A stretch of 6,623 nt of DNA, taken from the IMG/VR virus record IMGVR_UViG_3300029181_000086, one strand, 5' to 3'. Below the pieces are notes generated by a model. That model was given only the letters and a program-made list of their open reading frames with translations, was not told the DNA's origin and searched no databases. This stretch comes from a virus (lineage: Duplodnaviria > Heunggongvirae > Uroviricota > Caudoviricetes). Within the stretch, counting starts at the first letter, position 1. Every line of letters begins with the position of its first letter. This document shows positions 3,671 to 4,134 of this stretch, one piece after another. The translations under genes and the position numbers were made by a program.

Positions 3671-3868
3671 ATAATGATCTCGGATTTTAAGTTATGCTAT
3701 GGTGATAAAGTGCAAGACAGAATTAATTATCTTTGACGAAACTTAATGGGTAATTACTTTGTTTGCTCCCACAAGCGAGTTTTGTACGGCTGTATTGGGG
3801 TAGTAAATGAGCTATACAATCTTAATCATTTGTTAGGTGAGAACTCTTGGTCGCAGATTCAAATACTG

Positions 3869-3918
3869 AAAATACGTGACAAATTATTATGAGCAAAATG
3901 GTGTATGTCACGTATTTT
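3869..3918 (+). repeat. Perfect 13-bp inverted repeat in the ybcK-ybcL intergenic region
   Basis: AAAATACGTGACA (3869-3881) and TGTCACGTATTTT (3906-3918) are exact reverse complements separated by 24 bp. The core contains the palindromic ACGT. Confidence 0.65.
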
Positions 3919-3930
3919 GAATGGTAGGTT

Positions 3931-3960
3931 AAAAAATAACACCGACTTTCGTAGGTGTTA
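3931..3960 (-). terminator. Hairpin with the U-tract on the minus strand (possible terminator of a leftward transcript)
   Basis: TAACACC (3937-3943) pairs with GGTGTTA (3954-3960), 10-nt loop. The A6 run at 3931-3936 becomes U6 immediately 3' of the stem on the minus strand. No annotated minus-strand gene lies upstream of it. Confidence 0.3.
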
Positions 3961-4051
3961 CTAATAATAAAGCAGAGTTTTTAGATAGTATCAATGTGCT
4001 TTGTGTATATTGTGGCAAATAATTGGGTTGGGGGTACAATTGTGATTGCTT

Positions 4052-4081
4052 TTGCATGAACATTGCGCCTTTATGCATAAT
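4052..4081 (+). promoter_or_regulatory. Candidate sigma70 promoter for ybcL-ybcM
   Basis: TTGCAT (4052-4057), 18-bp spacer, CATAAT (4076-4081) with TG immediately upstream. About 55 bp upstream of the ybcL ATG. Pattern match only, in AT-rich DNA where such matches arise by chance. Confidence 0.3.
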
Positions 4082-4134
4082 GAGATAAAGGAATATCAAA
4101 TAAAATAACGATAGGTCATAACAAAGAGGTTTTT

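What the first reader, a model, noticed from the sequence alone, without database searches (positions are those of the whole stretch)
3671..4134. Unusually long (464 bp) AT-rich intergenic region between ybcK and ybcL with structured elements
This spacer is far longer than a promoter needs. It holds a perfect 13-bp inverted repeat (3869-3918), a hairpin whose U-tract is on the minus strand (3931-3960), and a candidate promoter for ybcL (4052-4081). Together these suggest an unannotated regulatory locus: an operator for a dimeric regulator, a small RNA, or a recombinase recognition site.
Basis: seen in the sequence. Interest (0 to 1): 0.55.

Follow-up and report, generated by a model that had tools for sequence, protein, structure and literature searches.

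The report
Mosaic joint between two prophage cargo genes
The long ybcK-ybcL spacer is a patchwork: its right third is the already-published ybcL promoter and YbcM binding site, and its middle is a joint-specific filler carrying two hairpins that look like transcription stops, so it is ordinary and not a new regulatory locus.

Summary
The spacer is 464 bp and 33% GC. It holds a perfect 13-bp inverted repeat (3869-3918; 2 of 2000 shuffles reach 13 bp) and a hairpin with a T6 run on the minus strand (3931-3960).

The spacer has three parts of different origin.
- 3671-3711 travels with ybcK.
- 3712-3979 exists only where ybcK abuts ybcLM: 675 E. coli genomes, all at least 95% identical.
- 3980-4134 is the ybcLM control region. 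About 2,560 other E. coli genomes keep it in a chromosomal emrE-ybcLM island that lacks ybcK.

All published signals map to the third part: sigma-70 and sigma-S RNA polymerase SELEX sites, the YbcM ChIP-exo peak (4034-4067) and a Cappable-seq start site (4113, -10 TAAAAT). H-NS covers the whole spacer.

The inverted repeat and the hairpin have no match in Rfam. They have no homologue next to ybcK relatives, no second copy in a complete phage genome, and no YbcM peak. No promoter-terminator pair is arranged as a small RNA gene. They most likely act as transcription stops or insulators at a module joint.

Low interest. A role for the repeat as a YbcK recombination site is not excluded but has no support.

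The parts
1892..3979 (+). Segment (ylcJ, ybcK and 309 bp of 3' non-coding DNA) that is present here but absent from the chromosomal emrE-ybcLM island. It sets the context for the spacer.
   Evidence: Homology to the fliE-yedK island covers window 1481-1891 and 3980-5700 only. The 3980 boundary recurs in about 2,560 genomes.
3671..3711 (+). 3' flank that travels with ybcK in other lambdoid prophages.
   Evidence: Homology of O157:H7-type and P22AR-type prophages to the window ends at 3711 and 3679 respectively.
3712..3979 (.). Joint-specific filler, found only where ybcK is followed by ybcLM.
   Evidence: Present in 675 E. coli genomes, once each, all at least 95% identical. Always linked to both ybcK and ybcL in IMG/VR loci. 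No other hit in the phage or plasmid collections.
3746..3892 (+). 48-codon open reading frame, annotated as hypothetical in three phage records. Probably not a gene.
   Evidence: No Pfam match. No homologue among 1.84 billion representatives except itself. I see no Shine-Dalgarno sequence upstream in the sequence.
3869..3918 (.). Perfect 13-bp inverted repeat with a 24-nt spacer. It is the strongest predicted RNA or DNA structure in the spacer on both strands.
   Evidence: I3; plus strand -18.7 kcal/mol, z -5.5; minus strand -14.6 kcal/mol, z -4.9; structure profile; 2 of 2000 shuffles. Arms are invariant in all copies examined. Poor terminator score (d about -53 to -58).
3883..3911 (-). Best sigma-70 consensus match in the region (GTGACA, 17 nt, AATAAT; 10/12), inside the inverted repeat and pointing toward ybcK.
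   Evidence: The number of promoter-like hits in the region is not above the shuffle expectation (5 found, 3.7 +/- 1.8 expected). No minus-strand start-site table was available.
3931..3960 (-). Terminator-like hairpin (GAAA loop) followed by U6 on the minus-strand RNA.
   Evidence: The d'Aubenton-Carafa-type score is about -2, borderline; the trpA terminator control scores +30. The common variant G3957A keeps a G-U pair in the minus-strand RNA but gives a C/A mismatch in the plus-strand RNA.
3980..4134 (+). ybcLM control region, shared with the chromosomal emrE-ybcLM island.
   Evidence: Positions 4096-4134 are identical in ETEC1749.
4012..4040 (+). Promoter predicted from RpoD holoenzyme SELEX (GTGGCA, 17 nt, TACAAT).
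   Evidence: PMC3946193. The same site was found by the scan. The -10 element is TATAAT in the chromosomal allele.
4034..4067 (.). Published YbcM (AraC family) ChIP-exo footprint. It contains the ATTGC...TTTGCAT repeat.
   Evidence: NC_000913.2 570015-570048, signal/noise 357. Converted with the offset window = U00096.2 coordinate minus 565981. Sequence checked.
4101..4113 (+). -10 element TAAAAT (4101-4106) and the Cappable-seq transcription start (A at 4113). The Shine-Dalgarno sequence AAGAGG follows at 4124-4129.
   Evidence: U00096.2 570094, plus strand, score 4.9. Sequence checked.

Best explanation
The spacer is not one regulatory unit. It is the joint between two cargo modules of a lambdoid prophage, and it has three parts.

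**Right-hand 155 bp (3980-4134): shown**
- This is the working control region of ybcLM.
- RNA polymerase binds at about 4012-4061.
- YbcM, the AraC-type regulator encoded in the same operon, binds 4034-4067.
- Transcription starts at 4113 from a TAAAAT -10 element with a poor -35.

Inferred: YbcM most likely acts as an upstream activator, centred near -62. It would use the repeated ATTGC...TTTGCAT half-sites, the promoter-proximal of which abuts the -35 region.

**Whole spacer: shown**
- H-NS binds across it.
- ybcK, ybcL and ybcM rise when H-NS is removed.

**Middle 268 bp (3712-3979): inferred**
- This filler exists only at this particular ybcK/ybcLM joint.
- The hairpin at 3960->3937 with its U6 tail is a minus-strand intrinsic terminator. 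It stops leftward (antisense or spurious) transcription coming from the AT-rich ybcLM side before it enters ybcK.
- The 13-bp inverted repeat forms a long stem-loop at the 3' end of the ybcK transcript. It works as a 3'-end stabiliser or a weak bidirectional stop. It helps keep cargo transcription from running on toward the late-gene activator Q in the lysogen.
- A hairpin just after emrE (1921-1947) faces inward from the other side. The ylcJ-ybcK unit is therefore bracketed by stops against incoming transcription.
For: **Mosaic structure**
- The chromosomal emrE-ybcLM island matches the window only at 1481-1891 and 3980-5700.
- The boundary at 3980 is shared by about 2,560 genomes.
- Other ybcK-bearing prophages diverge at 3679 or 3711.
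- The middle segment occurs only together with both neighbours.

**Control region**
- RpoD SELEX promoter with an H-NS flag.
- RpoS SELEX peak at 570042, which is window 4061.
- YbcM ChIP-exo peak with signal/noise 357, marked as bound by RNA polymerase.
- Cappable-seq start site at 4113.
- 4096-4134 is identical between the prophage and chromosomal alleles.
- An ATGCATAA motif also lies next to the YbcM site at ucpA.

**H-NS**
- Bound intervals 570312-570725, 570729-570857 and 570864-571309 (U00096.3) cover the spacer.
- ybcK, ybcL and ybcM have log2 changes of 2.4, 2.4 and 3.9.

**Hairpins**
- They are the only strongly structured windows in the spacer.
- The U6 tail is on the minus strand only, and the terminator score is borderline.
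- The G3957A variant preserves pairing only in the minus-strand RNA.
- YbcK relatives also have terminator hairpins 60-450 bp downstream, some between convergent genes.
Against: - No 3' end is listed anywhere in 570400-570999 in the held Term-seq tables. The locus is H-NS-silenced and barely expressed, so this absence is weak evidence.
- The inverted repeat is a poor intrinsic terminator by the usual criteria. Its loop is 24 nt, its U tract is only AUUUU, and its discriminant is about -53, against +30 for the trpA terminator.
- The hairpin's score is only borderline (about -2).
- No promoter was identified for a leftward transcript that the hairpin would stop.
- All copies are at least 95% identical, so there is no covariation evidence for or against either structure.
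- Whether YbcM activates or represses is not known. Its footprint also overlaps the -10 of the SELEX-predicted promoter.
Confidence: 0.6

Rival explanations
1. The two palindromes have no present function. They are relics carried along when the ybcK module and the ybcLM module were joined, for example the terminators of a lost convergent gene, and they persist only because the joint is young.
For: - The segment is restricted to near-identical copies.
- The module boundary lies only 8-19 bp from the hairpin.
- In a relative (L128) the recombinase gene converges on a minus-strand gene with a hairpin between them. That is the arrangement that would leave such a relic.
- No transcript ends are recorded.
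Against: - A perfect 13-bp repeat is unlikely by chance.
- It has not decayed in 675 genomes. However, the overall variation is too low for this to be significant: about 0.9 changes are expected in the 26 arm positions and none is seen.
Confidence: 0.22
2. The inverted repeat is an operator. A dimeric or tetrameric DNA-binding protein of the phage or host binds the two 13-bp arms and controls the minus-strand promoter that lies between them (GTGACA, 17 nt, AATAAT).
For: - That promoter match is the best in the region, at 10/12. Its -35 lies in the right arm and its predicted start in the left arm.
- The arms are perfectly symmetric.
Against: - The arm centres are 37 bp apart, about 3.5 helical turns. 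This is unusual for a simple dimer (general knowledge of helix-turn-helix operators).
- No YbcM peak, and no peak for 33 other factors, lies there.
- The promoter would drive only antisense RNA into ybcK, and there is no conserved open reading frame there.
- The number of promoter-like hits is no higher than in shuffles.
Confidence: 0.08
3. The 50-bp repeat is a recombination site of attP type for the large serine recombinase YbcK encoded 199 bp upstream. In this reading ybcK plus the repeat form an integration or excision module.
For: - The size (50 bp), the symmetry concentrated in the outer arms, and the position next to the recombinase gene resemble attP sites of large serine integrases (general knowledge, for example Bxb1 attP).
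- The 2,088-bp ylcJ-ybcK unit behaves as one insertion/deletion unit relative to the chromosomal island.
- A relative in L128 is flanked by a duplicated 5' end of its neighbouring gene, which suggests site-specific insertion.
Against: - At least 45 loci with about 97% identical ybcK lack the repeat.
- There is no comparable repeat downstream of relatives.
- There is no similar arm near them.
- There is no second site in a complete 44.6-kb phage genome.
- ybcK is never seen without emrE upstream.
- There are no terminal inverted repeats at the ends of the unit.
- The inner 24 bp are not symmetric (3 of 12 positions, my count from the sequence).
Confidence: 0.06
4. The middle segment encodes an unannotated small gene. 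Either it is the 48-codon frame 3746-3892, with the repeat as its terminator, or it is a small RNA.
For: - Three phage records annotate the 48-codon frame.
- A weak plus-strand promoter match lies at 3648-3675. The repeat lies at the end of the frame.
Against: - No homologue is known and no domain is detected.
- I see no ribosome-binding site in the sequence.
- No plus-strand start site is listed between 2557 and 4113.
- Rfam finds nothing.
- The 56-codon minus-strand frame spans the module boundary and is absent from the chromosomal allele.
Confidence: 0.04

Closest known systems
Morons of lambdoid phages (cargo genes in the nin region, each with its own promoter and terminator)
   Same: emrE, ylcJ-ybcK and ybcLM sit between ren and the ninB-like ybcN. 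They are low in GC content (about 0.29-0.45, against about 0.50 in the flanks). They are swapped as modules between prophages. ybcLM has its own promoter, and hairpins lie at the module edges.
   Different: Terminator function of the hairpins is not shown here. The larger one is atypical, with a 24-nt loop.
Autoregulated AraC/XylS-family promoters (regulator binds direct repeats upstream of, or overlapping, the -35 of its own operon)
   Same: YbcM has AraC-type helix-turn-helix domains. It binds once, strongly, upstream of its own operon. The footprint holds a repeated ATTGC...TTTGCAT motif, and the promoter has a good -10 and a poor -35.
   Different: The direction of regulation, the inducer and the exact half-sites are unknown. 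The footprint also overlaps a second predicted promoter.
Rho-independent (intrinsic) terminators, including bidirectional ones between convergent units
   Same: The 3937-3960 hairpin has a GAAA loop and a U6 tail on the minus strand. The inverted repeat has A-rich and U-rich flanks on both strands.
   Different: The discriminant score is borderline for the hairpin and clearly negative for the repeat. No mapped 3' ends are known.
attP sites of large serine integrases (about 40-56 bp imperfect palindromes next to the integrase gene)
   Same: It is 50 bp long, it is a palindrome, and it lies 199 bp from a large serine recombinase gene that has Resolvase, Recombinase and zinc-ribbon domains.
   Different: It does not co-occur with the gene in other contexts. 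There is no partner site, no inner symmetry and no evidence of mobility.

Membership tests
Intrinsic terminator (hairpin 3931-3960, minus strand) | Stable G+C-containing stem with a short loop | tested here: met
   9 pairs plus 2, one mismatch, 4 G-C pairs, GAAA loop. -11.7 kcal/mol, z -3.3.
Intrinsic terminator (hairpin 3931-3960, minus strand) | U-rich tract immediately 3' of the stem | tested here: met
   UUUUUU on the minus strand only. The plus strand has CUAAUAAUAAAG.
Intrinsic terminator (hairpin 3931-3960, minus strand) | Combined hairpin and U-tract discriminant above zero, and an RNA 3' end mapped in vivo | tested here: inconclusive
   d is about -2, against +30 for the trpA terminator control. 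No 3' end is listed in the held Term-seq tables, but the locus is H-NS-silenced.
Intrinsic terminator (inverted repeat 3869-3918) | Short loop and a U tract after a G+C-rich stem | tested here: not met
   The loop is 24 nt, the tail is AUUUUG, and d is about -53 (plus strand) and -58 (minus strand).
Small regulatory RNA gene | Promoter and terminator on the same strand, in that order, bounding 50-400 nt | tested here: not met
   On the minus strand the terminator (3960-3931) lies upstream of the only good promoter match (3911-3883). On the plus strand there is only a 9/12 match at 3648-3675, and no start site is listed.
Small regulatory RNA gene | Match to a described RNA family, or conservation with covariation | tested here: not met
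   Rfam gives no match at E up to 1. All copies are at least 95% identical and the repeat arms do not vary.
Recombination site of a large serine recombinase | Imperfect palindrome of 40-56 bp close to the recombinase gene | tested here: met
   50 bp, 199 bp downstream of the ybcK stop.
Recombination site of a large serine recombinase | The site travels with the recombinase gene, and a partner site or alternative insertion contexts exist | tested here: not met
   At least 45 ybcK loci lack it. There is no partner in the phage genome. There is nothing similar near relatives.
Recombination site of a large serine recombinase | Specific binding and strand exchange by the recombinase | not testable with these tools
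   This needs a gel shift and a recombination assay with YbcK.
Operator of YbcM (AraC family) | In vivo occupancy by YbcM | tested here: not met
   This row concerns the inverted repeat. The published ChIP-exo list has one site in the spacer, at window 4034-4067, and none at 3869-3918.
ybcLM promoter/operator (known regulatory region) | RNA polymerase binding, regulator binding and a mapped start site upstream of ybcL | tested here: met
   Taken from published tables mapped onto the window. The region is conserved in the chromosomal allele.

The most novel reading that the evidence does not exclude
The 50-bp inverted repeat is the cognate attP-type site of the large serine recombinase YbcK. 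The 2.1-kb ylcJ-ybcK unit, bracketed by inward-facing transcription stops, would then be a minimal recombinase-only cassette that inserts cargo into the nin region of lambdoid phages.
Probability: 0.06. Interest if true: 0.55.

Novelty: new member of a known kind. Interest (0 to 1): 0.14.

Why it matters
It matters little.
- The analysis corrects a tempting over-reading of a long AT-rich spacer in a very well-studied genome. The functional part is the ybcLM promoter and operator, which is already mapped. The rest is a joint between phage cargo modules.
- It gives a base-level map that places the published YbcM footprint, the start site and the H-NS cover on the sequence. It also suggests how YbcM may act at the promoter.
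- It shows that the chromosomal emrE-ybcLM island of many E. coli strains is a decayed relative of this prophage region.
- Only if the repeat proved to be a YbcK site would it bear on how serine recombinases move cargo between phages.

Tried and rejected
- Rfam at a permissive threshold found nothing.
- Searches for divergent copies of the middle segment found only near-identical E. coli copies, so no covariation test was possible. The searches covered E. coli genomes, phages, plasmids, IMG/VR and species-representative genomes.
- A pattern scan for the repeat core in all species mostly hit an unrelated palindromic repeat family in Opitutaceae.
- The 48-codon frame has no homologues. The 56-codon minus-strand frame is not conserved in the chromosomal allele.
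- I looked for terminal inverted repeats at the ends of the 1892-3979 unit, and for ylcJ-like genes or spacer-like DNA near YbcK relatives. None were found.
- I looked for arm-like motifs near relatives and found nothing systematic.
- Published 3'-end and start-site tables were checked:
  - Adams 2021 has no entry in the spacer.
  - SMRT-Cappable-seq has no entry.
  - The Conway 2014 and Dar 2018 supplements are not held.
  - Thomason 2015 is not held.
  - The minus-strand part of the Cappable-seq table and parts of the Forrest 2022 tables were cut in storage.
- I considered CRP, LexA, Fur and phage-repressor operators for the repeat by eye. I rejected them on spacing and sequence. This rests on recalled consensus sequences and is not a test.

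Full report
**What the window is**

The window is the early-right (nin) region of a DLP12-type lambdoid prophage of E. coli. The gene order is ren (1187-1489), emrE (1557-1889), ylcJ (1937-2086), ybcK (2144-3670), ybcL (4135-4686), ybcM (4696-5493), then ybcN, ninE and ybcO.

The spacer 3671-4134 is 100% identical to E. coli K-12 MG1655, at NC_000913.3 570429-570892. No feature is annotated there. The window itself is not K-12, because ren is intact here. Three induced phages (PhiR34_1 and two others) carry the same region.

Window coordinate x equals the U00096.3 coordinate minus 566758. This follows from the ybcK and ybcL positions. It also equals the U00096.2 coordinate minus 565981. The 777-bp shift between the two versions is from my knowledge of the sequence revisions. 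Two checks support it:
- The published emrE start site (567514) lands 24 nt before the emrE ATG.
- The YbcM site at ucpA lands upstream of ucpA.

**Check of the observation**

All the described features are present.
- The spacer is 464 bp with 33% GC.
- The 13-bp arms at 3869-3881 and 3906-3918 are perfectly complementary, with 24 nt between them. Only 2 of 2000 dinucleotide-preserving shuffles of the spacer give a perfect repeat this long with a gap of 3-40 nt.
- The second hairpin (3937-3946 and 3951-3960, 4-nt loop) is preceded by A6. The U6 tail is therefore on the minus-strand RNA.

**The spacer is a mosaic of three parts**

In about 2,560 of 5,426 complete E. coli genomes, a chromosomal island between fliE and yedK carries emrE directly followed by ybcL-ybcM, with a 168-bp spacer and no ybcK. 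Its homology to the window covers 1481-1891 and 3980-5700 only. The boundary at 3980 is the same in every such genome listed.

Strain HH45 has the prophage alleles of emrE (99.5%) and ybcL (100%) but the chromosomal allele of 3980-4061, with the same junction. The two loci therefore exchange sequence by homologous recombination, and the boundary is exact.

The island also shares 5524-5700 with the phage nin region and is followed by a porin gene, as in DLP12. It is therefore itself a decayed prophage remnant, and the ybcK-containing arrangement may be the older one.

Other lambdoid prophages carry ren-emrE-ylcJ-ybcK at about 97% identity. They diverge from the window at 3711 (O157:H7 type) or 3679 (type with a P22 antirepressor fragment) and rejoin it at 5524.

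Among the fetched loci that carry the E. coli-type ybcK, 45 full-context loci lack 3712-4134 and ybcLM. The segment 3712-3979 never occurs without both ybcK and ybcL. It is present once in each of 675 genomes, all at least 95% identical. It was found nowhere else in the phage, plasmid, IMG/VR or species-representative collections.

**The right-hand part is the known ybcLM control region**

Published data map here and only here:
- RpoD-holoenzyme SELEX predicts GTGGCA, 17 nt, TACAAT, which is window 4012-4040, and flags H-NS (PMC3946193). The scan found the same site.
- RpoS-holoenzyme SELEX peaks at 570042, window 4061 (PMC5493296).
- YbcM ChIP-exo gives one very strong site at NC_000913.2 570015-570048, window 4034-4067. 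Its signal/noise is 357 and it is marked as bound by RNA polymerase (PMC8464067).
- Cappable-seq lists a single plus-strand start in the spacer, at U00096.2 570094, window 4113. The next listed start upstream is at window 2557 (PMC4782308).

The start at 4113 sits 7 nt after a TAAAAT -10 element (4101-4106) with a poor -35 (TAATGA). It lies 22 nt before the ATG, with AAGAGG as the ribosome-binding site. Positions 4096-4134 are identical in the chromosomal allele. The blocks TGATTGC.TTTGC and CATTGCGCCTTT.TGCATAATGAGAT are also conserved.

The YbcM footprint is centred near -62 and contains ATTGCTTTTGCAT. A second copy, ATTGCGCCTTTATGCAT, abuts the -35 region. A similar ATGCATAA lies next to the YbcM site at ucpA.

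My inference is that YbcM acts as an upstream AraC-type activator of the 4113 promoter. Repression of the SELEX-predicted promoter, whose -10 element it overlaps, is equally possible.

H-NS-bound intervals cover the whole spacer, and ybcK, ybcL and ybcM rise in the H-NS comparison (PMC8894471).

**The middle part: what the two palindromes are not**

- They match no Rfam family.
- The 48-codon frame 3746-3892 has no domain and no homologue.
- The 56-codon minus-strand frame spans the module boundary and is absent from the chromosomal allele.
- On the minus strand, the terminator-like hairpin lies upstream of the only good promoter match (3911-3883). The pair therefore does not form a small RNA unit.
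- No YbcM peak, and no peak for the other factors of that study, lies at the repeat.
- YbcK is an intact-looking large serine recombinase. Its relatives (50-61% identity) are cargo in diverse prophages. None has a comparable repeat downstream or an arm-like motif nearby.
- A complete 44.6-kb phage genome holds no second copy of either palindrome.
- The 1892-3979 unit has no terminal inverted repeats.

**The middle part: what they most likely are**

They are the only strongly structured windows in the spacer on either strand.

The 3960->3937 hairpin has the form of an intrinsic terminator for leftward transcription. Its discriminant is borderline at about -2, where the trpA terminator scores +30. 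The one common variant in it, G3957A, keeps a G-U pair in the minus-strand RNA only.

The 13-bp repeat folds at -18.7 kcal/mol on the plus strand and -14.6 on the minus strand, with AUUUU after the G+C-rich core on both. Its 24-nt loop makes it a poor terminator by score. It fits better as a 3' stem-loop of the ybcK transcript or as a weak two-way stop.

Together with the hairpin after emrE (1921-1947), the stops face inward around ylcJ-ybcK. This is the layout expected for phage cargo modules, which must not be read into, nor read out toward Q, in a lysogen.

This functional reading is inferred. The held Term-seq tables list no 3' end here, which is unsurprising for H-NS-silenced DNA.

**Verdict**

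The interpretation as a new regulatory locus is not supported for the repeat and the hairpin. The real regulatory content lies 100-240 bp to the right of the repeat and is already published.

The spacer is long because it is a joint of three pieces. The remaining unknown is whether the perfect 50-bp palindrome binds a protein such as YbcK. That cannot be excluded, but every comparative test available went against it.

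Noticed in passing
L132-L153 (for example L138 5144-5237, L144 6246-6339): The 10-bp core of the repeat also hit about 20 contigs of Opitutaceae/Verrucomicrobia genomes. There it is the inner halves of two 19-bp palindromes, TGTCACGTA-A-TACGTGACA, spaced about 25-45 bp apart. Several copies occur per genome, in different gene contexts. This is a dispersed palindromic repeat family unrelated to the E. coli locus.
   Followed up: partly
L128 4673-8249: A YbcK relative (59% identity) with a KGG-domain gene and dinI sits between an 81-codon fragment and the full-length DUF1367 gene. The first 60 codons of the fragment are 97% identical to that gene. A duplicated target-gene 5' end suggests site-specific insertion of a recombinase cassette into a nin-region gene.
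   Followed up: partly
L166 3882-6025 (strain HH45); window 1481-1891 and 3980-5700: The chromosomal emrE-ybcLM island of HH45 is a hybrid. Its emrE and ybcL are prophage alleles (99.5% and 100%), but its spacer 3980-4061 is the chromosomal allele. This indicates gene conversion between the prophage and chromosomal copies.
   Followed up: yes
L003 5500-8200, L157, L166; window 5524-5700: The emrE-ybcLM island between fliE and yedK, present in about 2,560 genomes, keeps the last bases of ren. It also keeps 176 bp of phage nin sequence after ybcM, and a porin gene lies next to it as in DLP12. It looks like a decayed DLP12-like prophage, not an independent island.
   Followed up: partly
window 1921-1947: A hairpin, GAGGCTC...GAGCCTC, followed by a T-rich run lies just after emrE. 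The ylcJ start codon (1937) lies in its loop. This hairpin is inside the segment missing from the chromosomal island, so emrE there has no such stop before ybcL.
   Followed up: partly
window 3149-3166 (minus strand) and the ybcK leader: A published PhoB ChIP site, TGTCACATCGATGTAATC, lies inside ybcK (PMC10294691). A Rho- and NusG-dependent terminator has been described in the untranslated region upstream of ybcK (PMC4150792). Term-seq lists a 3' end 38 nt into ybcK.
   Followed up: no
window 5559-5587: A perfect 10-bp inverted repeat, GTCACCGGAG...CTCCGGTGAC, lies upstream of ylcH and ybcN. It is conserved in the other prophage types, just inside the point where their homology to the window resumes.
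   Followed up: no
L154: A 255-bp contig in an Alkalicoccobacillus porphyridii assembly is identical to this E. coli spacer. It is almost certainly contamination.
   Followed up: no
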